Source of the DNA: an uncultured delta proteobacterium
GTDB lineage: Bacteria > Desulfobacterota > Desulfobacteria > Desulfobacterales > B30-G6
Reading direction: 5' to 3'
Assembly: GCA_963848165.1 (NCBI GenBank)
Contig: CAWKCS010000025.1
Coordinates: 28,151-92,150, forward strand
Length of the DNA stretch: 64,000 nt
Part shown: positions 6,433 through 35,964 of the stretch, one piece after another
Layout: every line of letters starts with the position of its first letter
Numbering within the stretch: position 1 is the first letter of the stretch
Notes under the pieces: model-generated
Told to the model about the DNA's origin: nothing
What the model saw: only the letters and a program-made list of their open reading frames with translations
The model's database searches: none
Translations under genes and position numbers: made by a program

Positions 6433-6903
6433 CTACCACCGATAATGTGCGAACGCTTTGTTGGCATCGGCCATTTTGTGCGTATCTTCTTTTTTCTTGA
6501 CGGTCGCTCCACGGTTGTTGGCTGCATCCATAAATTCTCCAGCGAGCTTCCCGGCCATTCCTTTTTCTGAACGACTCCGGGCATAATTGATCAACCAACG
6601 GAGCGCCAGGGCTGTTCTGCGCGAAGGTCTGATTTCCGTGGGAACCTGGTAGGTCGATCCTCCTACCCGCCGTGACTTGACCTCGATCATGGGCCGGGTG
6701 TTGTCTACCGCCTGCTCAAATATCTTCAGCGGTGGTTTACCCGTTTTCTCTTCTATGATGCCAAACGCACCATAGAGGATAGACTCTGCAGTACTTTTTT
6801 TGCCATCCCGCATTATGCAGGCAATAAACTTAGACACCAGTTGACTGTTAAACCTTGCATCTGGAATGATAACACGTTCCGGTACTTCTCTTCTTCTTGG
6901 CAT
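6433..6903 (-). CDS. rpsG: 30S ribosomal protein S7
   Basis: 156-aa ORF ([27 protein letters not shown]…[10 protein letters not shown]). Confidence 0.97.
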
Positions 6904-6950
6904 CCTCTAAATCCTTTTGGTTCGTACCTTGACTTGAACCGAAACAGCGA

Positions 6951-7010
6951 GCGCATTCCCCGTAGGTTCTGCCGTTCGGCAGTGCTTCGCATGCTGCGAG
7001 GTTCTTCAAT
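6951..7010. repeat. Intergenic structured repeat, family A (copy 1)
   Basis: The reverse complement (attgaagaacctcgcagca…ctgccgaacggcagaacctacggggaa) aligns with 24923-24990. It contains the hairpin ctgccg-NN-cggcag. It sits between rpsL and rpsG. Confidence 0.6.
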
Positions 7011-7016
7011 CTTTAG

Positions 7017-7388
7017 CTATTTTGGTTTCTTTGCGCCGTATTTGGACCTGCCCTGTTTTCTTTCCACCACACCTAGTGTGTCGAGGGTTCCTCTCACAAT
7101 ATGGTAACGGACACCGGGAAGGTCCTTTACACGTCCACCGCGTACCAGGACAACCGAATGCTCTTGCAGATTGTGACCGATACCCGGGATATAGGCTGTC
7201 ACCTCTATTCCGGTCGTCAACCTGACCCTTGCAACCTTACGTAGCGCCGAATTCGGTTTCTTTGGCGTTGAGGTATAAACACGCGTGCAGACACCTCTCT
7301 TTTGGGGTGCCCGCTTTAGAGCCGGTGTATTGGTTTTCTTGATTACCCTTTTGCGACCCTTTCTGACTAACTGGTTGATGGTTGGCAT
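7017..7388 (-). CDS. rpsL: 30S ribosomal protein S12
   Basis: 123-aa ORF ([13 protein letters not shown]… …[16 protein letters not shown]…). Confidence 0.98.
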
Positions 7389-7455
7389 ACGCTCCTCATT
7401 TCATCTGTTTTCAATAGTTACATCAGCAAAATATGCGTCATCGCACAAAAGCGAA

Positions 7456-7484
7456 TATGTATACATTTTGCATGGGACTGTCAA
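7456..7484 (-). promoter_or_regulatory. Candidate sigma70-type promoter for rpsL-rpsG-tuf
   Basis: On the minus strand, TTGACA (7484-7479) is followed by a 17-nt spacer and TACATA (7461-7456), about 70 nt upstream of the rpsL ATG. Sequence pattern only. Confidence 0.4.
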
Positions 7485-7553
7485 GCGATTTATCTATTTA
7501 TTTCTTGGAAATCACCGCTTATTATCAATAGTCCCCGGTGGACCGCTGCAAAA

Positions 7554-10500
7554 TTATTCGGCCTGTTCAATCATGACGTCCCGGTGGACCTTCAAACCTG
7601 TTCCGGCAGGTATAATCCTTCCCATAATCACGTTTTCCTTCAGACCCCGCAAGTGGTCGACCGCTCCGGAAATACTCGCCTCGGTAAGAACCTTGGTCGT
7701 CTCCTGGAAAGAGGCCGCTGATATGAAGCTTTCCGTACTCAACGAAGCCTTGGTGATACCCAAAATCAGGGGTTCTGCCACAGCAGGCCTGCCGCCCTTT
7801 TCGATGACCGCCCGGTTGGCCGTCTCGAATATGATTTTATCAACCTGCTCTTCGATGATGAAATCGGTGTCACCAATTTCACGAACCTTTACCCGGCGCA
7901 TCATCTGCCGGACGATTACCTCGATATGCTTGTCATTAATACGGACACCCTGCAGCCGGTAAACCTCCTGCACTTCATCCACGAGGTATCGCGCGAGGGC
8001 TACTTCACCCTTGATATTCAAAATGTCCTGGGGAATTGCCGACCCCCCGATCAAGGGTTCACCGGCTCGCACATAATCGCCCTCATAGACATTGATGTGT
8101 TTTCCACGGGGAATCAGGTATTCCTTCTTCTCACCCACATCCACCGGGGAAACCGTGATTTTCTGTTTACCCTTCTTGGTTCCCTTGGCAATCGACACAT
8201 AGCCGTCGATTTCGCTGAGAACAGATATCTCCTTGGGTTTCCTGACTTCGAAAAGTTCTGCAACCCTTGGCAAACCGCCGGTAATATCCTTGGTTTTCGT
8301 CGTGGCTCTCGGTAATTTTGCTAGGACATCACCGGCCTGGATGGTATCGCCTTCTTCAACCAGGAGAATGGCATTGACCGGCAGTATGTATCTGGCCTGG
8401 CCTGTTTTTTTCGGCAGGGAAGCGGTTTTACCCTCCTTGTCCTTGATGGAGATCCTGGGTCTTTCTTCTGCGGTCTTTGATTCAATAACGGTACGACTCG
8501 ATTTACCTGTGACAGGATCCACTTTTTCCTGGAGCGTTTTTCCGAGAGCCAGATCGCCGAACTTGACGGTTCCATTCACTTCCGAAAGGATCGGTGTGGT
8601 AAAAGGGTCCCAGTTAGCAAGCAGATCTCCGGCCTCGACCGTGTCGCCGTCATTTATATCCAGATGGGCGCCGTAAATAACCGGAAACCGTTCCCGCTCC
8701 CGTCCGGATTCACTGACGATGGCAAATTCACCACCCCGTCTATTCATAACCACGTATTTATTGTTGGCATTTTTGACGACATCAAGGTCGATAAACTTGA
8801 TGGTGCCTTCGACGCGTGCGCGGATGTCGGCCTGCTCGACCCGTCGACTCGCAGTACCACCGATATGGAATGTCCTCATGGTCAGCTGTGTACCGGGTTC
8901 ACCGATGGACTGGGCTGCCAGTATACCGATGGCTTGTCCTATCTCCACTTTCTTTCCGTAGGCAAGATCACGGCCATAACAACCCGCACAGACACCATGC
9001 TCGGCTTTACATGTCAAAACCGAACGGATTTTCGCGCTGGTTATGCCTGCGTTTTCGATGAGATCTACAGCGGCTTCATCAATTTCTTCTCCGGCCTTCA
9101 CCAACACCTTGTCCGTAAACGGGTCCAGAATATCTTCGAGGGCCGTCCTTCCCAGAACGCGTTCCGACAGACGTTGTATCACCTCGCCGCCTTCCATGAG
9201 GGGCTCCACTTCCACACCCATCATGGTACCACAGTCATCTTGCAGGATAATGCAATCCTGAGCGACATCGGCTAATCTTCGGGTCAAATAACCGGAGTTC
9301 GCCGTTTTAAGAGCGGTGTCCGCCAGCCCCTTTCGGGCGCCGTGCGTGGAAATAAAGTACTGCAGAACCGATAGCCCTTCACGAAAATTTGCCGTAATCG
9401 GTGTTTCAATGATCTCGCCGGATGGTTTGGCCATGAGCCCACGCATACCGGCCAGCTGCCGCATCTGATCCTTGCTGCCCCGGGCGCCGGAATCCGCCAT
9501 CATATAAATCGGGTTCATGCTTTCCATGACAACGGGTTTATTATCCTTGCCCAGAACCGGGTTTCCGTCTTTGTCGATAACGGGTGCGATCTTCATGGAG
9601 TTCATCATCTCGTTGGCAACATCATCCGTTGCCTTGGCCCATATATCGACGACCTTGTTGTACTTTTCACCCTGGGTGATGAGACCCTCGGTATACTGCC
9701 TGCCGATTTCCGTGACCCGAGTTTCCGCCGCCTTGAGAATGTCCCACTTGGCATCCGGGATAATCATGGCATCGATGGAAATGGACAGGCCCCCTTTGGT
9801 GGAATACTTGTAACCGATATTCTTCAAGCGGTCTGCTAAAATAACGGTCGCCTTGGGCCCCAGGTTCCGGTAGGCATAGTCAACGATTTTTCTGAGCTCG
9901 TTCTTGTCCATGACCTTGTTGACGATGTCAAATGGTATTTCCGGTCGTTTTTCAACGGCTTCGAACAGATGAAACATCAGATCGTTGGACATGATAATGC
10001 CGCTGGTTTCACCTGCTTTCAAAGCAAACAGACTTTCGGCATCGGTTTCGTCGATATGCAGTATCTCATTAAGGTCGTGCTTTTTGACCAGTCCGATATC
10101 ACCGTCGAAACGTTTGTCTGCACTTTCAGAATAGGAATCAACCAGGTTGATAAAGGCATCGCCATTGTTGATCTTTTTCAGGACAGCCCGCGCGGATTTC
10201 TCGTCGGTTACCATGATATGCCGTAAACGCATGATTTCTTCCCTGGGCATGATCTCCCAGAGCAGAATCCGGCCAACGGTGGTTTTCACACGCGTACCCG
10301 CTATTCGAACGGTTATCCGGGCATGCAAATCAACGGAACGGGCATCGTATGCAGAGCGCACCTCTTCAGGATTTGAAAAAAGCCGTCCTTCCCCCTCGGC
10401 ACCCTCGATCGACCTGGTCATATAATAAATACCGAGAACAATATCCTGACTGGGGACGATGATAGGGCTGCCGTTTGCAGGCGATAGGATGTTGTTACTG

Positions 10501-26259: not shown

Positions 26260-26796
26260 GTGTTCGAGATGAAAACGATAATTCTGGTCAGACACGCCAA
26301 ATCAAGCTGGAAAGATCTCAGTCTGGACGACTTTGACAGACCTTTGAACAAGAGAGGTAAAAAGAATGCACAATTTATGGGGGGGAAACTAAAAGAGCGA
26401 CAAATTATGCCTGACCTGGTTCTGTCAAGTCCTGCTAAAAGGGCCAGAAAAACAGCCACAGCTTTTGCCAAAGCCATCGGTTATCCCAAAAAAAAGATTG
26501 TCTTTGACGACAATATGTATCATGCTAGTTCAAGATACCTAATTGAGATAATTAGAAATATTGATGATAAACATGAAACAATCATGCTTTTTGGACATAA
26601 CCCTGATTTGAATGGCTTGGCCAATATATTGCTTAATAAAAATCCGGTTGATAACATTGTTACCACTGGCGTATACTGTATCAAAGTTAATGTGAATCAA
26701 TGGCAAAACATGCGTGAATGGAAAGGCGAATCCGTCTTTTACGATTATCCAAAGCGATACCAGGTGGATACTAAACATTTTATGGATCAAAGTTAA
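26260..26796 (+). CDS. sixA: SixA-like phosphohistidine phosphatase (histidine phosphatase superfamily)
   Basis: MKTIILVRHAKSSW… (RHA catalytic motif) …LSSPAKRARKTA… …LFGHNPDL. The likely start is the ATG at 26272. Confidence 0.8.
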   Translation: MFEMKTIILVRHAKSSWKDLSLDDFDRPLNKRGKKNAQFMGGKLKERQIMPDLVLSSPAKRARKTATAFAKAIGYPKKKIVFDDNMYHASSRYLIEIIRNIDDKHETIMLFGHNPDLNGLANILLNKNPVDNIVTTGVYCIKVNVNQWQNMREWKGESVFYDYPKRYQVDTKHFMDQS

Positions 26797-26799
26797 GGA

Positions 26800-28359
26800 A
26801 TGTGCGATCATTTAAAATTCAGCTTGCCTGACGCGTACATCCAGCAGCGGCTGACCGGCGCATTGGCTGATCATTATGTGATCAAAAAAGAGCGAGCCGT
26901 TCTCAAGCGCATGGCGATTTACGATACGTTTGATTGGCGTTTGTTTAATAAATCATTTGTTTTGTACACTTCCGAAAACAAACTCTTTTTACGCAGACTG
27001 TTCAAAAACGCCATTATTCACAGTGCCGCAATTACCTCGCCACCTGTTTTTGTATGGGATTTCCCCGACAGTGAATTAAAACAAAAGCTATCACCGGTTT
27101 TAAACGTGCGCGCGCTTTTAAAACTTATTGAGCTACATTCCCGATTAGCAGCTCATCGCATTTTAAACCAGGATGAAAAAACAGTGGCCCGCTTGATCTA
27201 CGAGGAAATTAGGCCTGTACAAGGAAAAAACGCCCCGGTTTTGGCAAAATATTTGTGGTTGCAACCGGTTAAGGGGTACACAAAGGCCTGCCAAAACATC
27301 ACCAAATACTTGGAAGAAGTCGGATTTACAGCTCTTAAAAAAGAAGACATCTACTTTAAAGCGATGGATGCAGCCGGCAAAAGTCCGGGCAGTTATTCTT
27401 CAAAATTGAAAATACAGCTCGACCCTGCCATGCGTTCTGATGAAGCCACTAAAATCATTTTACGTTATTTGCTACAAATAATGAAGATCAATGAAGCCAA
27501 CCTTAAGAAGGACCTGGATACGGAATTTTTACATGATTTTCGAGTCGCAACTCGGCGCACCCGCTCTGCTTTGGGTCAAATAAAATCCGTGTTTCCGAAA
27601 CATATAGCCGGCCGATTTAAAAAAGAGTTCGCTTTTGTGGGCAAACTCTCCAACCAGTTGCGCGACCTAGACGTCTACCTCCTCAAGGAGAAGGCCTTTA
27701 AAGCGATTCTCCCACCCGTCTTGCGCGATGACATTGCCCCCCTGTTTGACTATTTGCGAAAAAATCGATCAAAGGCTCTGCAAAAAGTTATCCGTGGTTT
27801 AAATTCTAAAAAATATGTACGGATCATGCAGAATTGGGAATTCTTCCTGGATGAACCCGTTCAGGATCCGCCAGCGGCATCCAATGCTAATGTGCCCATT
27901 ATTACCTTGGCGCGAAAAAGAATCTATAAGAAATACCGGAGCATCGTAAAAGTCGGTAGCCAGATCCTTGAGAACACCGAGGACGAGAAATTGCATGCAC
28001 TGCGAATTGAATGCAAAAAATTGCGGTATCTGATGGAGTTTTTCTACAGTCTGTTTCCACGCAAAAAAATCAATATATTGATTGCCCAATTAAAGATATT
28101 GCAAGACAATTTAGGGGATTTTAATGACCTGTGTGTTCAGGAACAATACCTGCTGAACATTGCCGAGGAGCTGCCCGCAACCCATCGGATATCTAAAAAG
28201 ACACAGGTGGCAATTGGCAGTCTGATCGGAACGTTGGATAAGGAAAAGCAGATCATTAAAGATGCATTTGCCAAAACGTTTACAGACTATGCATCGTCTT
28301 CGAATAAAAGAGCATTTAGTAAACTTTTCGCCTCAAAGCAGAAAGAGACGGTTCCATGA
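26800..28359 (+). CDS. CHAD domain protein with N-terminal CYTH-like region
   Basis: 519 aa. The C-terminal half shows CHAD hallmarks (…LHDFRVATRRTRSAL… …LRDLDVYL… …LHALRIECKKLRYLMEFF…). The N-terminal ~200 aa have the size and position of the CYTH-like domain that often precedes CHAD, which is less certain. The start is 3 nt after the sixA stop. Confidence 0.8.
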   Translation: MCDHLKFSLPDAYIQQRLTGALADHYVIKKERAVLKRMAIYDTFDWRLFNKSFVLYTSENKLFLRRLFKNAIIHSAAITSPPVFVWDFPDSELKQKLSPVLNVRALLKLIELHSRLAAHRILNQDEKTVARLIYEEIRPVQGKNAPVLAKYLWLQPVKGYTKACQNITKYLEEVGFTALKKEDIYFKAMDAAGKSPGSYSSKLKIQLDPAMRSDEATKIILRYLLQIMKINEANLKKDLDTEFLHDFRVATRRTRSALGQIKSVFPKHIAGRFKKEFAFVGKLSNQLRDLDVYLLKEKAFKAILPPVLRDDIAPLFDYLRKNRSKALQKVIRGLNSKKYVRIMQNWEFFLDEPVQDPPAASNANVPIITLARKRIYKKYRSIVKVGSQILENTEDEKLHALRIECKKLRYLMEFFYSLFPRKKINILIAQLKILQDNLGDFNDLCVQEQYLLNIAEELPATHRISKKTQVAIGSLIGTLDKEKQIIKDAFAKTFTDYASSSNKRAFSKLFASKQKETVP

Positions 28360-29114
28360 CAACCTTGGCACTATACAGTAATAAAGGGGGCGTGGGCAAA
28401 ACTACGACAGCAGTAAACCTGTCCTATTTGGCTGCGCAGGCAGGTGCTAGAACCCTGATCTGTGACCTAGACCCCCAAAGCTCCGCAACCTATTATTTTC
28501 GGATTAAACCTAAACTGAAGTTCGGTGCAAAGAGGTTCATTAAAGGTGGCGAGCAGATAAAAAAAAGCATTAAAGGCACTGATTATGAAAATTTGGATCT
28601 GCTGCCGGCCGATTTCACCCTTCGAAAGTTAGATGCCGTTTTTGGCAAATTGAACCGCCCCAAAGAGCGGTTGAATAAATTTCTAAAACCGCTTAAGGCT
28701 GAATATGATCTGGTCATTTTGGACTGTCCGGTCACAATCAGCATCCTGGCCGAAAATATTTTCAATGCTGTTGATTTCATCCTCGTTCCGCTCATTCCAA
28801 CAACGCTTTCTGTTAGAACCTATAAACAATTACTGTCATTTTGCAGAAAGAATAAATATGATGCAGGTAAAATTTACGCCTTTTTTTCCATGGTCGACAG
28901 ACGCAAAAGAATGCACAAAGAACTCATGGCGATGATGTTGAAGGAATTTAATGGCGTGCTGCGAAGCCTTATTCCATATTTATCGCAGATCGAAAGAATG
29001 GGAATTGAGCGGGAGCCGGTTGCGGTTTCTGCACCGGGTTCAGTGGCTTCAAAAGCATATCAAAACCTGTGGACAAAATTCCAGGAAGCCGCTTTTGCGA
29101 ACCCGAACAATTGA
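28356..29114 (+). CDS. ParA/Soj-family (deviant Walker A) ATPase, orphan
   Basis: 252 aa (MTTLALYSNKGGVGKTTTAVNLSYLAA…LICDLDPQSSAT… …LVILDCP…). The ATG overlaps the CHAD stop (ATGA at 28356-28359). No parB is nearby. Confidence 0.9.
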   Translation: MTTLALYSNKGGVGKTTTAVNLSYLAAQAGARTLICDLDPQSSATYYFRIKPKLKFGAKRFIKGGEQIKKSIKGTDYENLDLLPADFTLRKLDAVFGKLNRPKERLNKFLKPLKAEYDLVILDCPVTISILAENIFNAVDFILVPLIPTTLSVRTYKQLLSFCRKNKYDAGKIYAFFSMVDRRKRMHKELMAMMLKEFNGVLRSLIPYLSQIERMGIEREPVAVSAPGSVASKAYQNLWTKFQEAAFANPNN

Positions 29115-29224: not shown

Positions 29225-31418
29225 ATGTGCCGGTTAACGAACGTTCCGGCCGGGAAAAAAAGCATGGGAAAAGCAAAAACAAATACGGTAAAACCTGGTA
29301 AAATCGATACGGATTCGCCAAATGCGCTCATCAACCGTGAGTTAAGTTGGCTCAGCTTTGCACGCCGTGTGCTCGCGCTCGCGGAGGATCCCGAATTACC
29401 CCTGCTGGAGCGTGTCAAGTTTGCCGGCATCATGGGCATGCTGTTTGACGAGTTCGCGATGAAACGCATGGGGGGGCTCAAACGCAAGATTGAGAAACGG
29501 AAACGGAAAAAGAAGCTATCCCCCGACGGGCTCAGCCCGGAAGAGGAATTGCAAGCCTGCCGGAACGAATTGCATAAACAAACCCGACGTGTTTCCAGGC
29601 TGATGAGTCATAAGCTTGGCCCCGCTTTGTCAAAGGCCGGAATTCCCATCCTGGAATATAAGGAGTTGAACGATCAACAGCAGTCGCATTTGCAGCACTA
29701 TTTCCTTGAATCGGTGGAACCCATTCTGACACCGCTTGCCGTAGATGTTTCACATCCGTTTCCCTTCATCAGTAACCTGGGGTTAAACATAGCGGTGGAA
29801 GTCAAGGAAACTAAGAAGAAACGCAATCGCTTCGTGCGGATCAAAGTACCGGCAAACCGCCCGCGCTGGGTGCCTCTGCCCGATGGCGCCGGTTATGTGC
29901 CTCTGGAGCAGGTGATCGAGGCGAACCTTAAACTTCTGTTTCCCAGGGCAGCCGGTTTGAAGTGCTATTTTTTTCGCGTAACTCGCGTCGCCAAGGATGA
30001 CCCGTGGGAACGGACATACCTTGAAGGCCCAGGAACCGATCATATTCCAGGTCGCCTGATCGGTATGGTCACGGAAGAACTGACTGCCCGAAAGTTTGCC
30101 GGCGTGATACGACTCCAGGTGAGTTCTAACATGCCCAAAAAACGTCAACGCTGGATCGCCGAACAGCTCAAGGCAGATCTAAAAGATCTGGAACCCACGA
30201 AAGGTCTGCTGAGTCTTTCGGATTTAATGAAGTTCCAGGTGGGAGGTTACTCGAAACTGCGCGATCCTCACCATGAGCCCGTAACCCATCCTCGCCTGGT
30301 CCACCTGGATCCCCTCGACTCTGCAGATATTTTCGACGAGATTCGCCGAGGGGACATCCTGTTGCATCATCCTTACCACAGCTTCGACGGCTCAATATTG
30401 CATTTCCTGCAATGTGCAGCAGTTGACCCGCATGTGCTGGCAATCAAGCTGACCATTTACCGCACCAGCAGCGAGTCACCGATCATTATAGCGTTGATGA
30501 ATGCAGCGCGCCAGGGCAAGCAGGTAGCCGTGCTGGTGGAGATTACCGCACGCTTCGACGAGGCCCCCAACATCGCATGGGGCCGGCAGCTTGGAGCAAG
30601 TTGGCGTACACGTCGCCTATGGCGTGGAGCGTCTTAAAACCCACGTCAAATTGGCTCTCGTCGTCCGTGAAGAGAAGAACGGCATTCGCCGCTATTTCCA
30701 CGTGGGCACCGGAAACTACCACGAAGGCACAGCCCGAATTTATGAGGACATGGGCATTCTCAGTTGCGACAGGGAACTGGGTGCTAATGTCGCAACTGTG
30801 TTCAACGAACTAACGGGGGCCACTCCGGCTCAAAGCTATGGAAAATTATTGGTCGCCCCCCACAATCTGCGCGAGCACTTTACCGAATTGATCCGGCGCG
30901 AGGCCCGGCTCAGTCAGTCAGGCCGTTCTTCTGGCATTCGCGCCAAAATGAACCAACTTCAGGACGCGCTCATGATTCGCGAACTTTACCTCGCCAGCCA
31001 GGCGGGTGTGCCCATCAGTCTGAATATCCGCGGCTTATGCTGCCTGCGTGCGGGGGTTCCCGGATTGTCCGATACAATTCGGGTTTTCAGTACACTGGGG
31101 CGCTTTTTAGAACATTCACGCATCTATCGTTTCGAAAACGGGGGTGACCCTGAATTTTTTATTGGTTCGGCCGACTGGATGCAGCGTAATCTCAACCGTC
31201 GTGTGGAAACCATAACGCCCGTTTCCGACCCGACACTGAAACAGGAATTAGAGCAGACCTTACAGGTTTACGAAAACGATAACTGCTCGGCCTGGGATAT
31301 GCGACCTGACGGCCGTTATATTCGGCGGCGTCCGGCCAAAGGCGAAAAGCGCCGCGCCGCTCAAGAAGTATTCATCGAGCTTGCCGAGCATCAATCAAAG
31401 AATAAGGGCAAGGTCTAA
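29225..31418 (+). pseudogene. ppk: polyphosphate kinase 1, split by a 1-nt frame change near 30590 (pseudogene or sequence error)
   Basis: ORF 29225..30637 carries …LINRELSWLSFARRVLALAEDPELPLLERVKF… through …VAVLVEITARFDEAPNIAWGRQL. ORF 30591..31418 continues as EQVGVHVAYGVERLKTHVKLALVVREE…HVGTGNYH… The likely true start is the ATG at 29264. The gene is clearly more GC-rich than its neighbours. Confidence 0.9.
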
Positions 31419-32075: not shown

Positions 32076-32798
32076 ATGAAAAAAATACTTGTACTGGGTG
32101 ATATTCATGCAAATTATCCGGCATTGCAAGCGATATGGGGCTATGTCCGGAAATACCGGTTCGATCGGATCATTAACACGGGCGATTTAACCGTATACAG
32201 CACTTTCCCCAATGAAACGATCCAATGGCTCCGCAAGAGAAAGAAATCTGTCTCTATATTGGGGAATACGGACCGAAGGGTATTAAGAATCTTAAAAGGC
32301 AAAAAATTGAAAAGACCCAAGAAAGAAGAAAAACGGGTCATGTATTATTGGACATCGGAAAACCTGCTTCCGGAAAATGCAGTGTATTTGAAGTCTTTAC
32401 CCGGACAAATCGATCTGACCATTGGCAATATCCGTATTGGTGTGTTCCATGGAACTTGCGATGACGAGGCTGAAACTCTGTTTCCAAGCGCCCCTGAAAG
32501 CCGCTTTCGCGAGCTGGCAGCGGGCTCTCCCTTTCAGATTCATATCATGGGTCATTCTCATACACCCTATCATAAAATAATCGACGGGGTTCATTTTATC
32601 AATCCGGGGAGTGTGGGACGAATGTTCGATGGAGATCCGCGAACGGCTTTTGCAATTCTCAAGCTCTCTTCAGGAAAGATAGCCGTTAAGCATTTCCGCA
32701 TCCCCTATCCGGTGGAAGCGGTGATTCAAGGGCTGAAACAAAACCGTCTGCCGGATATCTATGAAAAAATGTTCCGCATGGGGAGGAAACTAAATTAA
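32076..32798 (+). CDS. metallophosphoesterase (calcineurin-like, YfcE/MJ0936-type)
   Basis: 240 aa with the motifs LGDIHAN, GDL, GNTD, HGT, GHSHTPY and NPGSVG. Confidence 0.85.
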   Translation: MKKILVLGDIHANYPALQAIWGYVRKYRFDRIINTGDLTVYSTFPNETIQWLRKRKKSVSILGNTDRRVLRILKGKKLKRPKKEEKRVMYYWTSENLLPENAVYLKSLPGQIDLTIGNIRIGVFHGTCDDEAETLFPSAPESRFRELAAGSPFQIHIMGHSHTPYHKIIDGVHFINPGSVGRMFDGDPRTAFAILKLSSGKIAVKHFRIPYPVEAVIQGLKQNRLPDIYEKMFRMGRKLN

Positions 32799-32942: not shown

Positions 32943-33236
32943 CTATCGAGTTAACTCCTCGTAGATATCGTAAAAAGTCTTTTCTCCGATCAGAGAATCC
33001 ACCTTGCCTTGAATATCTCTTCTTTCTTTGCTGTGCAGCCATTTCTTCCAGTCTTCGGCTGTCTCCCACTTGCTTATAACCAGGAAAGCTGCGGGATCTT
33101 CAAGGTTTCTTAATGTCTCGCCTGAAATATATCCGGGTTGTTCTTTTGCGCGGGAATGCAGCTCTTCGAAAAGCGGCAAAAGGTCTTCCGGCTTATAGAC
33201 TTTCCATTTGCGCTTAATCATAACGTAAACAGGCAT
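32943..33236 (-). CDS. antibiotic-biosynthesis-monooxygenase (ABM/Dabb-fold) domain protein
   Basis: The likely start is MPVYVMIKRKW at 33236, preceded by AGGAGGG. …GYISGETLRNLEDPAAFLVISKWETAEDWKKW… is typical of the ABM fold. The ORF-track ORF extends to 33281. Confidence 0.6.
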   Translation of the reverse strand: MPVYVMIKRKWKVYKPEDLLPLFEELHSRAKEQPGYISGETLRNLEDPAAFLVISKWETAEDWKKWLHSKERRDIQGKVDSLIGEKTFYDIYEELTR

Positions 33237-33297
33237 TAATCCCTCCTTGTAAATTAAAATCTTAATACGTTGCGGAACCAAAGCACACTAAAAAATA

Positions 33298-34152
33298 TTA
33301 TCCGGGCAATTCATCGCCCGTCATGAGATGATCTTCCATGAATCTGATTTCATCAATGCCCGATATCACGATCTCAGGATCTATCAGGAGTTCTTCCGGG
33401 GGGACTTTGCCTTTATAATCGACTTTGGACAGAATATGTTTGATACAGTTGAGTCGTGCCTTTTTCTTGTTGTCGGATCGGATAATCGTCCAGGGAGAAA
33501 TGGTTCGGTTGGTTTCATTGAGCATCTGAAACTTTCTTAGGGTGTAATCATCCCACCTTTCCTGTGCCTCTCTGTCCACCGGAGAGATTTTATACTGTTT
33601 CAACGGGCTCGTCTCTCTCCCAATAAACCGGCGCAGCTGCTCCTTCTTGGAAACAGAGAAAAAGAACTTGAATAAAACAATTCCGTTCTTTACCAGCATT
33701 GATTCAAGCATCGGTACATCTTTCAAAAAACGCTTATTCTCTTCATCCGTGCAGAAACCCATTGTCGGTTCAACCATGGCGCGGTTGTACCAGCTGCGGT
33801 CGAATAGGACAATTTCTCCGGCGGACGGGAGGTGTTGGATATATCTTTGGAAATACCATTCGGTGCGTTCCCTGTCGCTGGGCTTTAAAAGGGCGACAAC
33901 CCGGGCGCCCCGTGGATTCAAATGTTCGACAATCCTCTTGATCGTGCCTCCTTTTCCGGCGGCATCCCGCCCTTCAAACAACATCAAGACGCGTTCCTCG
34001 TTGGCAATGACATGCTTTTGCCATTTCAAAAGTTCGATCTGCAGCTTGTTCAGCCCCTCTTCGTATTCGAGGGTGAATTTTTTTACCCAAATCGCCTTCC
34101 GTCCTTTTGATTTTTTCTTATTAACATTTTTAAAGCTGGTGTGTTCGGTCAA
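33298..34152 (-). CDS. ppk2: polyphosphate kinase 2 (PPK2 family), copy A
   Basis: …VLMLFEGRDAAGKGGTIKRIVEHLNPRGARVVAL… …FDRSWYNRAMVEPTMGFC… are PPK2 Walker A and lid motifs. The ORF-track start is a TTG. Confidence 0.9.
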   Translation of the reverse strand: MTEHTSFKNVNKKKSKGRKAIWVKKFTLEYEEGLNKLQIELLKWQKHVIANEERVLMLFEGRDAAGKGGTIKRIVEHLNPRGARVVALLKPSDRERTEWYFQRYIQHLPSAGEIVLFDRSWYNRAMVEPTMGFCTDEENKRFLKDVPMLESMLVKNGIVLFKFFFSVSKKEQLRRFIGRETSPLKQYKISPVDREAQERWDDYTLRKFQMLNETNRTISPWTIIRSDNKKKARLNCIKHILSKVDYKGKVPPEELLIDPEIVISGIDEIRFMEDHLMTGDELPG

Positions 34153-34298
34153 TTTCTTCTTTTTCTTTTTTCTTTTTTCTTGCCTTCTTCCTTTGCTTTC
34201 CTATCGGCCTTAGAAGTCTTTTCCGCGGATTTCACTGCAGCTTTAGACTCTACGCCTTTAGCTTTCTTTTTGTTTTTTTCCGCCTTTTCTTTAGCCAT
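34149..34298 (-). CDS. Lys-rich 49-codon ORF, either a separate mini-protein or the frame-shifted N-terminal tail of PPK2 copy A
   Basis: My translation is MAKEKAEKNKKKAKGVESKAAVKSAEKTSKADRKAKEEGKKKEKRKRRN*. The ATG at 34298-34296 is preceded by AAAGGGGA. The stop TGA (34151-34149) overlaps the PPK2 TTG start (34152-34150) by 2 nt inside an A-rich run. Confidence 0.45.
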   Translation of the reverse strand: MAKEKAEKNKKKAKGVESKAAVKSAEKTSKADRKAKEEGKKKEKRKRRN

Positions 34299-34351
34299 CT
34301 AATCCCCTTTTTCTTATATAACATCCATTCAGGTTTGAAAATATTCAGAAA

Positions 34352-35326
34352 TCATATCATTGATCTGCCGTATTTTTTTCGCTGCGTTTTCATTTCCTTC
34401 AATTCTTTGTTCCCAGGTATTACAATCGTTGGGTCCAAGGCTAAATCGAGTTTTCGGCTTCTGCCTTTATATCGCACTGAATTGAGAATCAGCTTCATGG
34501 TTTCCCTTCGGGCCAGATGCTTATTGTCGGATCGAATCACCCACCATGGCGATTTTTTCGTGTGAGTTTTTTTCAACAACATGAGCTTCTTTTCAGTGAA
34601 TTCATCCCACAGTTCCTGGGCCTGCAAGTCCACCTCGGAAAGTTTCCATTGTCGAAGCGGGTCGTTTTTTCTGCGATCAAATCGCCTTTTCTGCTCCTCC
34701 TTGGTTACTGAAAAGTAGAGTTTAATCAATATGGTCTTGCCGGCATCTTCGAGAAAATTTTGTTCGTAAGTAATGACCTTCTTCATGAAACGCCTATATT
34801 GCGCCTTAGTACAAAACCCCATCACCGGTTCGACCAAAGCCCGGTTGTACCAGCTTCTGTCAAATAAAACGATCTCTCCGGCATGTGGGAATTGTTCGAT
34901 ATACCGCTTGATATGGAGTTCTGTTTTTTGCTGCTCGCTCGGTTTGCCCAAGGCGACGACCCGATATCTTTTTGTATTCATATACCGGATAATTCGTCGA
35001 ATCGTCCCACCTTTGCCGGAGGCGTCCCGGCCGTCAAAAAGAATGACCATCTTTTTACCGGTATTTTCCAGATGGCGTTGTAGCTTGATGAGTTCCGCCT
35101 GATACGGTTTCAACTCCTCTGAACGGTAATGTTTTTCCAATGCCTCCTTGATGATTTCTTCTTTTTCTTTCTTTTGGGAAAGCTTCGGGATCTTTAGAAC
35201 CGGCTTTTTAGAATCGACGGATTTGATTTTCGAATCGACTTTTTTCACGATTCCTTTCCCCGGTGCGTTCAAATCGCCGGCTCTTTTTTCCGATTCTTTT
35301 TGCTTGTCTTTCTCCTCAGTTTTCAT
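34352..35326 (-). CDS. ppk2: polyphosphate kinase 2 (PPK2 family), copy B, with Lys-rich N-terminal extension
   Basis: …MVILFDGRDASGKGGTIRRIIRYMNTKRYRVVAL… …FDRSWYNRALVEPVMGFC…. The likely start is MKTEEKDKQKE at 35326; the ORF-track ORF extends to 35404. Confidence 0.9.
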   Translation of the reverse strand: MKTEEKDKQKESEKRAGDLNAPGKGIVKKVDSKIKSVDSKKPVLKIPKLSQKKEKEEIIKEALEKHYRSEELKPYQAELIKLQRHLENTGKKMVILFDGRDASGKGGTIRRIIRYMNTKRYRVVALGKPSEQQKTELHIKRYIEQFPHAGEIVLFDRSWYNRALVEPVMGFCTKAQYRRFMKKVITYEQNFLEDAGKTILIKLYFSVTKEEQKRRFDRRKNDPLRQWKLSEVDLQAQELWDEFTEKKLMLLKKTHTKKSPWWVIRSDNKHLARRETMKLILNSVRYKGRSRKLDLALDPTIVIPGNKELKEMKTQRKKYGRSMI

Positions 35327-35420
35327 AGTTGATCCCAGACGTATCGTTTTCAATATCTTTATTGAAATATTTTGCAGCCCCGTAACCAAAGGCCGTGGCC
35401 TCAATTCGGGGCTGCATGGT

Positions 35421-35573
35421 CTTTTTTATTTCTTTTTCTTTTTTCCCTTTTTCTTCGCTTTTTTCTTTTCTTTCTTTTTCTCTACCTTTTTCTTTTCTTT
35501 CTTTTTCTTTTTTCCCTTTTTCTCCGCCTTATTCTTTTCTTTCTTTTTTTCCTTTTTATCTTTCTTTTTCTCT
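35421..35573. repeat. Polypyrimidine/polypurine mirror-like tract with an internal 69-nt-period repeat
   Basis: On the + strand about 153 nt contain only ~6 purines. ctttttcttttttccctttttct occurs at 35432-35454 and again at 35501-35523. Confidence 0.85.
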
Positions 35574-35653
35574 GCTGTTACCCCTTCGCCTTTTTTTTCT
35601 TCTTTGGCTTCCTCTTCGGGTTTAGCTTTTTCGAGCTTTTTTTCTTTTGCCAT
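35426..35653 (-). CDS. 75-aa extremely Lys/Glu-rich protein (histone-H1/AlgP-like composition)
   Basis: MAKEKKLEKAKPEEEAKEEKKGEGVTAEKKKDKKEKKKEKNKAEKKGKKKKKEKKKVEKKKEKKKAKKKGKKKKK. AAGGAGAG lies 5 nt upstream of the ATG. There is no recognisable domain. Confidence 0.55.
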   Translation of the reverse strand: MAKEKKLEKAKPEEEAKEEKKGEGVTAEKKKDKKEKKKEKNKAEKKGKKKKKEKKKVEKKKEKKKAKKKGKKKKK

Positions 35654-35802
35654 GGGACTCTCCTTTCTTTAAAGTTTTCAATTCCTCATAGTTTGCTGTG
35701 GAATTAGAAAATATTGAGATTGGCTGTTTTATCGAGATTGATAAAGCATGTCTCTTAGGAAACTAAAAACCGGATTTACTTTATATAGCTAAAGAAATTC
35801 TA

Positions 35803-35964
35803 CTATAATGACACGGGTTTGTGCAACCACTTTTTCTTGTCAGCCACCCTGCCGCATTTTTTACATACAAATTTCGGATCACTAACTATCGTTATATATT
35901 TATCAAATTTTTCGGATATTTCATCTTCCTTCCACTTGCACAGACGTTTTTCCTTTTTAGCCAT
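35803..35964 (-). CDS. 53-aa hypothetical protein with CxxC motif
   Basis: The likely start is MAKKEKRLCKWKEDEISEKFDKYITIVSDPKFVCKKCGRVADKKKWLHKPVSL, with the ATG at 35964 preceded by GGAAGAGGGAGAA. The ORF-track ORF extends to 36063. Function is unknown. Confidence 0.45.
   Translation of the reverse strand: MAKKEKRLCKWKEDEISEKFDKYITIVSDPKFVCKKCGRVADKKKWLHKPVSL

What the first reader, a model, noticed from the sequence alone, without database searches (positions are those of the whole stretch)
34149..35964. Three small ORFs starting MAKEK/MAKKEK, two of them extremely Lys-rich, embedded among ppk2 genes
Seen in the sequence: there are three small ORFs. One is 75 aa (35426-35653), more than half Lys, with KKGKKKKK repeats. 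One is 49 codons and Lys-rich (34149-34298). One is 53 aa with a CxxC motif (35803-35964). All have Shine-Dalgarno-like sequences and begin MAKEK or MAKKEK. PPK2 copy B also carries a Lys-rich N-terminal tail.

Established knowledge: polycationic, histone-H1-like proteins such as AlgP bind polyP granules. Partners of ParA-type ATPases stimulate them through Lys/Arg-rich N-terminal peptides.

Inference: these could be polyP-granule coat or adaptor proteins and possible partners for the ParA at 28356.
Basis: partly seen in the sequence, partly recalled or inferred. Interest (0 to 1): 0.6.

Follow-up and report, generated by a model that had tools for sequence, protein, structure and literature searches.

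The report
Lysine-rich proteins of a polyphosphate island
Of three small lysine-rich reading frames beside polyphosphate kinase genes, one is only the cut-off tail of a kinase (a one-base assembly slip), while the other two are real, conserved, uncharacterised small proteins (a polylysine protein and a zinc-finger-like protein) that travel with polyphosphate and ParA genes in sediment sulfate reducers and are candidate polyphosphate-granule parts.

Summary
All three ORFs exist exactly as described, but they are three different things.

- **ORF1 (34149-34298)** is not a gene. It is the roughly 50-aa Lys-rich N-terminal tail of PPK2-A. The tail is fused in frame in 25 of 29 relatives. Independent metagenome and RNA contigs, one near-identical, carry one more base in the T-run 34166-34171, which restores a 333-aa protein.
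- **ORF2 (35426-35653)** is a genuine, length-variable polylysine protein. About 36 Desulfobacterales loci keep it in the same island. The Lys frame is phase-locked (zero Arg in 24 of 30 homologues), internal repeats are multiples of 3, and A-runs are capped.
- **ORF3 (35803-35964)** is a genuine small basic protein under strong purifying selection, with an invariant Cys-Cys-Cys-His/Cys site. It belongs to a large unnamed family (1256 clusters). In Desulfobacterales it sits in the CHAD-ParA polyphosphate island, often right after parA.

Binding to polyphosphate granules is inferred from composition and synteny only. The ParA-partner idea is untested; only ORF3 has gene-order support, and its distant relatives lie outside polyphosphate contexts. 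Moderately interesting as a candidate parts list for an uncharacterised granule system.

The parts
34149..34298 (-). ORF1: the Lys-rich N-terminal tail of PPK2-A (49 codons), detached in this assembly
   Evidence: The tail is fused in frame in 25 of 29 relatives. With the extra base seen in independent contigs it reads ...GKKKEKKKKKKLTEHTSFKN, giving a 333-aa PPK2.
34166..34171 (.). T6 run (A6 on the coding strand) where independent contigs have one more base; this is the site of the frame break
   Evidence: 'put in behind 34165: T' in X1 (a contig with 1 mismatch in 171 nt), X3 and X4; the same in RNA contig X24.
33298..34152 (-). PPK2-A catalytic body (class I PPK2)
   Evidence: PF03976, E = 1.4e-96. 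TIGR03707, 361 bits against a cutoff of 301.8.
34352..35326 (-). PPK2-B with a roughly 60-aa moderately Lys-rich N-tail (start MKTEEKDK, as in relatives)
   Evidence: PF03976, E = 6.3e-76.
35426..35653 (-). ORF2: a 75-aa disordered polylysine protein with a mixed-charge N-terminal block of about 30 aa and a polyK block; net charge +26
   Evidence: About 36 syntenic homologues, a phase-locked Lys frame, capped A-runs. RNA contigs cover it.
35424..35567 (.). Internal in-frame duplication within ORF2 (period 69 nt = 23 codons, 2.1 copies)
   Evidence: The best-scoring periods are 69, 42 and 27 nt, all multiples of 3.
35803..35964 (-). ORF3: a 53-aa basic protein with a Cys9/Cys34/Cys37/His48 metal site, from an uncharacterised family
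   Evidence: invariant Cys; position 48 is His or Cys; pN/pS about 0.1-0.3; AF2 pLDDT 75.8; 1256 clusters.
28356..29114 (+). ParA/MinD-type ATPase of the island
   Evidence: AAA_31, 1e-35; orthologues in 15 of 61 relatives, co-occurring with every strong ORF3 orthologue.
26800..28359 (+). CHAD-domain (polyphosphate-binding) protein, overlapping the parA start
   Evidence: PF05235, 7.5e-52.
26260..26796 (+). SixA-like histidine phosphatase; in the type II layout it lies between ORF3 and ORF2
29225..31418 (+). PPK1, split into two ORFs by one base near 30590
   Evidence: Near-identical contigs lack one base at 30590-30593.
32943..33281 (-). ABM-domain protein, always downstream of PPK2-A
32076..32798 (+). 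Metallophosphoesterase of the island

Best explanation
The three ORFs are components of a conserved Desulfobacterales polyphosphate (polyP) island, and they are three different things.

1. **ORF1 (shown).** It is the Lys-rich N-terminal extension of the class I polyphosphate kinase PPK2-A. In this assembly it is cut off by a one-base shortfall in an A-run. The native protein is about 333 aa.
2. **ORF2 (shown to be coding; function inferred).** It is a fast-evolving, intrinsically disordered 'diblock' protein. A mixed-charge Glu/Lys N-terminal block of about 30 residues is followed by a block of almost pure lysine, with a net charge of about +26. Its most likely function is to bind the polyP polyanion electrostatically. 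It would then act as a granule scaffold, coat or counter-ion protein, with the polyK block on polyP and the neutral/acidic block facing the cytoplasm.
3. **ORF3 (shown to be coding and conserved; metal binding and function inferred).** It is a small basic protein with one Cys3His metal site (Cys4 in other phyla), probably zinc. In this order of bacteria it has been recruited to the CHAD-ParA module.

The common theme is inferred. Lys-rich disordered segments, either free-standing (ORF2) or appended to enzymes (PPK2-A, PPK2-B), would serve as polyP-targeting modules that concentrate the island's proteins on the granule.
For: **ORF1 is the PPK2-A tail.**
- 25 of 29 PPK2-A orthologues carry an in-frame MAKEK...KKEKKLKKKLTEHTSFKN tail.
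- Independent DNA contigs, including one with 1 mismatch in 171 nt, and one RNA contig have one extra base at 34165/34166.
- With that base the reading becomes a 333-aa protein matching the relatives.
- A second frameshift in ppk1 is likewise absent from near-identical contigs, which points to consensus errors in this assembly.

**ORF2 is coding.**
- It is present at the equivalent position in about 36 loci, 37-152 aa long.
- The frame set by the conserved ATG and N-terminus has zero Arg in 24 of 30 homologues. The other two frames would give 5-68 Arg plus stop codons.
- Repeat periods are 69, 42 and 27 nt.
- The longest A-run is shorter than codon-shuffled expectation in 30 of 30 homologues (mean 7.7 against 10.4).
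- RNA contigs of close relatives cover the ORF and its leader.
- It co-exists with an intact PPK2-A tail in L062 and L073.

**ORF3 is coding and conserved.**
- 58-94% identical orthologues, with pN/pS about 0.1-0.3.
- Invariant C9, C34 and C37, with H48 exchanging with Cys.
- All 8 strong orthologues among 61 relatives co-occur with the ParA orthologue.

**Island synteny:**

**Established knowledge.** CHAD domains bind polyP (PMC6537752). The Lys-rich AlgP associates with polyP granules, and PPK2 enzymes are granule-associated (PMC9239181, PMC8776046). Lys-rich tracts bind polyP non-covalently (PMC12077175).
Against: - No binding, localisation or proteomic evidence exists for any of these proteins.
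- The organisms are uncultured. The RNA evidence consists of low-depth contigs from relatives (90-99% identity), and such libraries may contain DNA.
- A polylysine protein would bind DNA or RNA as readily as polyP.
- Distant ORF3 homologues in other phyla are not linked to polyP genes. Some lie beside ferritin, Dps or imelysin genes.
- The AF2 model of ORF3 is only moderately confident and has no significant structural neighbour.
- The one-base difference in ORF1 could be a real strain-specific mutation rather than an assembly error.
Confidence: 0.6

Rival explanations
1. The small proteins, through their basic MAKEK/MAKKEK N-terminal peptides, are the ATPase-stimulating partners or adaptors of the island's ParA. 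They would link polyP granules to a ParA gradient, in the way ParB or McdB do for their cargos.
For: - ORF3 lies immediately downstream of parA in 5-6 loci, and after parA-CYTH on the same strand in 14 more.
- All strong ORF3 orthologues co-occur with the ParA orthologue.
- The N-termini are basic and conserved.
- From established knowledge, ParA partners act through Lys/Arg-rich N-terminal peptides.
That note is unchecked.
Against: - In this window ORF3 and ORF2 are 6-7 kb from parA and on the other strand.
- ParA orthologues occur without ORF3 (G019, G055; unlinked in G053).
- An earlier follow-up reports that CHAD-ParA pairs exist in many phyla, including ones that lack ORF2 and ORF3, so the CHAD protein itself may be the partner.
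- ORF3 relatives without any ParA nearby also have basic N-termini (L096).
- MAKEK is also the N-terminus of EF-Tu.
- No interaction test was possible.
Confidence: 0.2
2. ORF2 is a histone-H1-like nucleoid-associated protein. It would bind DNA rather than polyP, and its position in the island would be regulatory or coincidental.
For: Polylysine binds any polyanion. AlgP binds DNA as well as granules (PMC9239181).
Against: - The genome already encodes a classical Lys/Ala/Pro-rich H1-like protein elsewhere (C15:15616-15861).
- ORF2 is found only inside the polyP island and follows it through three different gene orders.
- It has almost no Ala or Pro repeats.
Confidence: 0.15
3. ORF3 is a general small metal-binding or metal-homeostasis protein (Zn or Fe). 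Its link to polyP would then be through the role of polyP as a metal chelator, not through ParA or granule architecture.
For: - The family is very large and spans many phyla (1256 clusters).
- Distant members sit next to ferritin, Dps, or imelysin/DHOR iron-uptake genes.
- Tandem and His-rich variants (H-x-x-H-L-C) exist.
- The fourth ligand exchanges between His and Cys.
Against: - The iron-related neighbours are a minority, about 4-6 of 29 distant loci.
- In Desulfobacterales, Fibrobacteraceae and some others the gene is consistently next to ppk1, CHAD or parA.
Confidence: 0.3
4. ORF1 is a genuinely separate, translationally coupled leader ORF (TTGA overlap) in this strain, or the fusion is made by frameshifting or slippage on the A-run.
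For: - The assembly shows the split.
- A second genome (G015, locus L034) also shows a split tail.
- A-runs are slippery.
Against: - The split sites differ between the two genomes. The three frame-broken tails among the 29 relatives (L031, L034, L059) are all in MAGs whose contig names suggest long-read assemblies (my inference).
- Near-identical short-read contigs and an RNA contig are in frame.
- The A-runs do not lie in the canonical X XXY YYZ register, by my reading of the sequence.
- ppk1 shows the same kind of one-base artefact.
Confidence: 0.08
5. ORF2 is not translated. The polypurine tract would be a structural or slippage-prone DNA element (H-DNA), and the ORF would be incidental.
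For: Purine tracts lack stop codons in all three sense frames.
Against: - The Lys phase is locked across 30 lineages despite extensive length change.
- The ATG, Shine-Dalgarno sequence and N-terminal 25 aa are conserved.
- Repeat periods are multiples of 3.
Confidence: 0.03

Closest known systems
AlgP (AlgR3) of Pseudomonas aeruginosa, a histone-H1-like protein associated with polyP granules (PMC9239181)
   Same: A Lys-rich, disordered, polycationic segment proposed to contact polyP and to organise granules.
   Different: - AlgP is much larger, with a structured N-domain and a 154-aa tail of KPAA repeats.
- ORF2 is 75 aa with a Lys/Glu composition (1 Pro, 6 Ala) and no detectable homology.
- ORF2 is encoded inside the polyP gene island.
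- Its function is untested.
PHA-granule proteins with Lys-rich tails (PhaF, PhaM) and phasins
   Same: Small granule-surface proteins. A Lys-rich tail couples a storage granule to another polyanion.
   Different: The cargo here would be polyP, not PHA. There is no phasin domain and no sequence similarity.
McdB and ParB-type partners of ParA/MinD ATPases
   Same: Small, highly charged proteins encoded next to a ParA gene, with a basic N-terminal peptide. In many relatives ORF3 directly follows parA.
   Different: - There is no homology.
- No interaction has been shown.
- In this window the genes are not adjacent to parA.
- ORF3 has a metal site, which those partners lack.
CHAD-domain 'phosins' (PptA and relatives; PMC6537752)
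   Same: Basic proteins that bind polyP granules. A CHAD protein is encoded in the same island.
   Different: ORF2 and ORF3 have no CHAD domain.
Targets of non-covalent lysine-polyphosphate modification, with PASK-like Lys-rich tracts (PMC12077175, PMC12345225)
   Same: Lys-rich tracts flanked by acidic residues that bind polyP strongly.
   Different: In those cases the tracts lie inside ordinary housekeeping proteins. Here the whole protein (ORF2) or a dedicated enzyme tail is the tract, and it is genetically linked to polyP enzymes.
Class I PPK2 polyphosphate kinases
   Same: PPK2-A and PPK2-B match PF03976, and PPK2-A passes the TIGR03707 cutoff.
   Different: A roughly 50-aa Lys-rich N-terminal extension is not described in the PPK2 review I searched (PMC8776046).
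Small zinc-knuckle, zinc-ribbon or C2H2-like domains
   Same: A CxxC knuckle plus two distant ligands. There is weak local sequence resemblance to C2H2 fingers and to L37a.
   Different: There is no significant fold or sequence match. The ligand spacing, C-x24-C-x2-C-x10-H/C, is unusual.

Membership tests
PPK2 (PF03976 / TIGR03707), for PPK2-A including ORF1 | Match to the PPK2 profile above the curated cutoff | tested here: met
   E = 1.4e-96; 361.1 bits against a cutoff of 301.8. ORF1 itself is outside the domain and aligns with the tails of orthologues.
PPK2 (TIGR03707 equivalog), for PPK2-B | Score above the equivalog cutoff | tested here: not met
   292 bits, below the 301.8 cutoff. It is still a clear PF03976 member.
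AlgP / histone-H1-like proteins | Lys/Ala/Pro-rich KPAA-type repeats | tested here: not met
   ORF2 has 42 Lys, 15 Glu, 6 Ala and 1 Pro, with no KPAA unit.
AlgP / histone-H1-like proteins | Physical association with polyP granules | not testable with these tools
   This needs localisation experiments or granule proteomics.
ParA partner proteins (ParB/McdB-like) | Encoded adjacent to the cognate ParA gene | tested here: inconclusive
   ORF3 is adjacent to or near parA in about 20 relatives, but not in this window or in the other type I loci. ORF2 is never adjacent.
ParA partner proteins (ParB/McdB-like) | The N-terminal basic peptide stimulates the ParA ATPase or binds ParA | not testable with these tools
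   No multimer prediction or biochemical assay was available.
CHAD polyP-binding proteins | CHAD domain (PF05235) | tested here: not met
   none of the three small ORFs has a Pfam hit.
Zinc-ribbon / zinc-finger small proteins | Four conserved metal ligands | tested here: met
   C9, C34 and C37 are invariant. Position 48 is His or Cys in all 21 aligned sequences.
Zinc-ribbon / zinc-finger small proteins | Fold or profile match to a known zinc-binding family | tested here: not met
   Best Foldseek hit against the PDB has E = 1.1. There is no Pfam or NCBIfam match. The PDB sequence hits are only sums of weak CxxC matches in multi-finger arrays.

The most novel reading that the evidence does not exclude
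The island encodes a dedicated machinery for building and partitioning polyP granules, with four parts:
- CHAD and ParA as the positioning motor.
- The Cys3His protein ORF3 as its previously unrecognised adaptor or activator.
- The polylysine diblock protein ORF2 as a phasin-like surfactant that sets the size of polyP condensates and prevents their fusion.
- Lys-rich tails as a general 'address label' that recruits PPK2 enzymes to the granule.
Probability: 0.2. Interest if true: 0.75.

Novelty: new variant of a known kind. Interest (0 to 1): 0.45.

Why it matters
How bacteria build, size and place polyphosphate granules is largely unknown. Only CHAD proteins, PPKs and AlgP are established granule proteins. 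No ParA-based positioning system for polyphosphate turned up in my literature searches.

This analysis turns a vague observation into a concrete and conserved parts list:
- a polylysine protein;
- Lys-tailed PPK2 enzymes;
- a small metal-binding protein that often follows parA.

Each of these can be expressed and tested in laboratory hosts.

It also shows that one of the 'genes' is an assembly artefact. More generally, single-base indels in this genome (PPK2-A and ppk1) should not be read as biology.

Tried and rejected
- **Family searches on the small ORFs.** Pfam, NCBIfam and PHROGs gave nothing.
- **Structure of ORF3.** AF2 plus Foldseek against the PDB gave no significant neighbour. The PDB profile search gave only additive CxxC matches to zinc-finger arrays.
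- **Function of ORF3 from neighbours of distant homologues.** The contexts were heterogeneous, with only a weak iron-storage and iron-uptake theme.
- **Literature.** No hits for a ParA/CHAD polyP positioning system or for Lys-rich PPK2 tails. The cable-bacteria paper was a false lead.
- **Programmed frameshifting at ORF1/PPK2-A.** Rejected. The A-runs are not in a canonical slippery register, and independent contigs are simply in frame.
- **ORF2 as a detached tail of PPK2-B.** Rejected. In type II loci it lies after the SixA-like gene, convergent to the PPK2 genes. In L062 and L073 it lies between the two PPK2 genes while both tails are intact.
- **Basic N-terminus of ORF3 as a marker of ParA linkage.** Not discriminating, because L096 is unlinked yet basic.
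Full report
**Observation.** The three minus-strand ORFs are present exactly as described.
- ORF1, 34149-34298: 49 aa, MAKEKAEKNKKK...
- ORF2, 35426-35653: 75 aa, with 42 Lys, 15 Glu and no Arg.
- ORF3, 35803-35964: 53 aa, MAKKEKRLCKWK...CKKCGRVADKKKWLHKPVSL.

Each is preceded by a GGAG/GGGA-type ribosome-binding site. They lie among PPK2-A (33298-34152) and PPK2-B (34352-35326). Nearby are a CHAD protein, a ParA ATPase, PPK1, a metallophosphoesterase, an ABM protein and a SixA-like phosphatase. None of the three matches any Pfam, NCBIfam or PHROG family.

The cluster is not a chance feature. In the whole 3.43-Mb genome only three ORFs of at least 35 aa are at least 33% Lys, and two are here. 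MAKEK/MAKKEK starts with a ribosome-binding site occur only here and in the two EF-Tu genes.

**ORF1 is the tail of PPK2-A.** The ORF1 stop overlaps the TTG 'start' of PPK2-A (TTGA).
- In 25 of 29 orthologous loci PPK2-A is 333-341 aa. It begins with a roughly 50-aa Lys-rich extension that runs in frame into ...KKEKKLKKKLTEHTSFKN.
- The closest relative (L032) reads MAKEKAQKVKKKANGVNSKAAVKSAGKTSKVDKKAKAEGKKKEKKIKKKLTEHTSFKN, which is almost ORF1 plus the PPK2-A start.
- Of the other four loci, one is cut by the locus end. Three are frame-broken at different places, all in MAGs whose contig names suggest long-read assemblies (my inference).
- Contigs assembled independently from public marine-sediment and aquatic metagenomes carry one additional T after 34165. 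One of them has a single mismatch over 171 nt. A metatranscriptome contig carries the same extra base.
- With that base the frame reads ...EEGKKKEKKKKKKLTEHTSFKN and gives a 333-aa protein.
- The frameshift that splits ppk1 near 30590 is likewise absent from near-identical contigs.

The simplest account is single-base consensus errors in this assembly. A genuine strain-specific mutation cannot be excluded without the source reads.

**ORF2 is a real gene.** A Lys-rich ORF of 37-152 aa occupies the equivalent position in about 36 Desulfobacterales loci, in three layouts:
- directly after ORF3 and before PPK2-B, as in this window;
- after ORF3 and the SixA-like gene, convergent to the PPK2 genes;
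- between the two PPK2 genes (L062, L073), where PPK2-A still has its own tail.

The third layout shows that ORF2 is not a detached enzyme tail.

Purine tracts have no stop codons in any sense frame, so openness alone proves nothing. I therefore tested the phase.
- In the frame fixed by the conserved ATG and N-terminus (MAKEKKxEE... or MAEKKE...), 24 of 30 homologues have zero Arg. The other two frames would encode 5-68 Arg and contain stop codons.
- The few homologues with Arg have it only at a visibly frameshifted 3' end.
- Internal repeats have periods of 69, 42 and 27 nt.
- The longest A-run is shorter than expected from shuffling the same AAA/AAG codons in all 30 homologues (mean 7.7 against 10.4 nt). 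This fits selection against poly(A) tracks, although DNA-level instability of long runs would have the same effect.
- Metatranscriptome contigs from close relatives cover the ORF and its leader up to about 35779. This is weak support for transcription.

The protein has no hydrophobic core. It is a charge-segregated diblock, with a near-neutral Glu/Lys N-terminal block and a polyK block, and a net charge of +26.

**ORF3 is a real, conserved metal-site protein.**
- Orthologues at 58-94% identity occur in many Desulfobacterales. Non-synonymous divergence is 0.03-0.28 against synonymous divergence of 0.21-1.0.
- C9, C34 and C37 are invariant, and position 48 is His in this clade and Cys elsewhere. 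This ligand-type exchange argues for a tetrahedral metal site.
- AF2 gives a moderately confident model (pLDDT 75.8) of two short helices followed by a knuckle-like C-terminal part.
- There is no significant structural match or sequence match.
- A profile search finds 1256 clusters at 50% identity, nearly all stand-alone proteins of 50-60 aa. They carry no informative name and no Pfam domain. Some are tandem duplications with an extra H-x-x-H-L-C motif.

**Context of ORF3.** Within Desulfobacterales the gene is embedded in the polyP island. Three layouts occur:
- type I: ORF3-ORF2-PPK2B-PPK2A-ABM, as in this window;
- type II: PPK1-CHAD-ParA-(CYTH)-ORF3-SixA-ORF2;
- a third order beginning ORF3-SixA-CHAD-ParA.

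ORF3 directly follows parA in 5-6 loci and follows parA-CYTH in 14. Among 61 relatives all eight strong ORF3 orthologues co-occur with the ParA orthologue. ParA also occurs without ORF3.

In Fibrobacteraceae and a few other lineages ORF3 is divergent from ppk1. In Chloroflexota, Planctomycetota, Verrucomicrobiota and Paraferrimonas its neighbours are unrelated to polyP. A minority are ferritin, Dps or imelysin/DHOR genes.

**Mechanism.**
- *Shown:* gene reality, conservation, synteny and composition.
- *Inferred:* Lys-rich disordered segments act as electrostatic polyP-binding modules.

ORF2 would be a free-standing granule scaffold or coat. The tails would recruit PPK2-A and PPK2-B to their polymeric substrate. 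This rests on established knowledge:
- CHAD domains bind polyP (PMC6537752).
- PPK2 enzymes and the Lys-rich AlgP are granule-associated (PMC9239181, PMC8776046).
- Lys-rich tracts bind polyP tightly and non-covalently (PMC12077175).

ORF3 is best described as a small basic Zn-type protein recruited to the CHAD-ParA module. Whether it is the ParA partner, a polyP- or nucleic-acid-binding factor, or a metal-handling protein is open.

The shared MAKEK N-terminus may be a functional peptide. It is also the N-terminus of EF-Tu, and A-rich codons after the ATG are a known feature of efficiently initiated genes (my knowledge).

**Comparison and novelty.** ORF2 works like AlgP or the Lys-tailed PHA-granule proteins but is not a member of those families: it has no KPAA repeats and no homology. 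ORF3 belongs to no described family. I found no description of Lys-rich N-tails on PPK2 enzymes and no paper on a ParA system for polyP granules.

I therefore classify the finding as a new variant of a known kind, namely polycationic granule-associated proteins, with one artefactual component.

Earlier scan notes agree on several points, and I verified the first two of them independently:
- the one-base separation of ORF1;
- the ppk1 split;
- the CHAD-ParA pairing, which I checked only in part.

Noticed in passing
window 30585-30595: The frameshift that splits ppk1 into two ORFs is absent from near-identical independent metagenome contigs, which have one base fewer at 30590-30593. This assembly therefore carries at least two single-base indels that break genes of the island.
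   Followed up: partly
genome contig C15:15616-15861 (outside the window): An 81-aa Lys/Ala/Pro-rich histone-H1-like ORF (MVKKAEPKEKTLKKTTPKATSKK...). It is the only other strongly Lys-rich ORF in the genome.
   Followed up: no
L074:7995-8773; L099:7995-8664; L089 and L091 around 6700-8150: Distant ORF3 homologues in Paraferrimonas, a Verrucomicrobiales MAG and Chloroflexota lie next to ferritin, Dps and imelysin/DHOR genes. This hints at a link to metal (iron) handling for the wider family.
   Followed up: partly
proteins P0151, P0174, P0183, P0173: Some family members are tandem duplications of the ORF3 module, with an added His-rich H-x-x-H-L-C motif before the first Cys.
   Followed up: no
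window 35344, for about 14 nt: A 14-nt deletion variant in the spacer between the hairpin downstream of ORF2 and the PPK2-B start appears in one DNA contig and one RNA contig of relatives.
   Followed up: no
window 35797-35825 (minus strand): A sigma-70-like promoter match lies inside the 3' end of ORF3. RNA contigs covering ORF2 end near 35779, so ORF2 may have its own promoter. The number of promoter matches in the region is not above shuffled expectation.
   Followed up: no
window 35377-35417: A GC-rich hairpin (CAGCCCCG...CGGGGCTG) lies immediately downstream of the ORF2 stop and before PPK2-B. It could be an attenuator or a bidirectional terminator.
   Followed up: no
L037:12492-13103; L063:5723-6322; L020:5618-6193: In relatives the island's HhH protein is about 190-200 aa and carries a Lys-rich patch (KKAGKKPKKKKY).
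   Followed up: no
window about 6347 and about 21445 (C25:34497 and C25:49595): Two EF-Tu gene copies with identical N-termini ([12 protein letters not shown]) lie in the same window.
   Followed up: no
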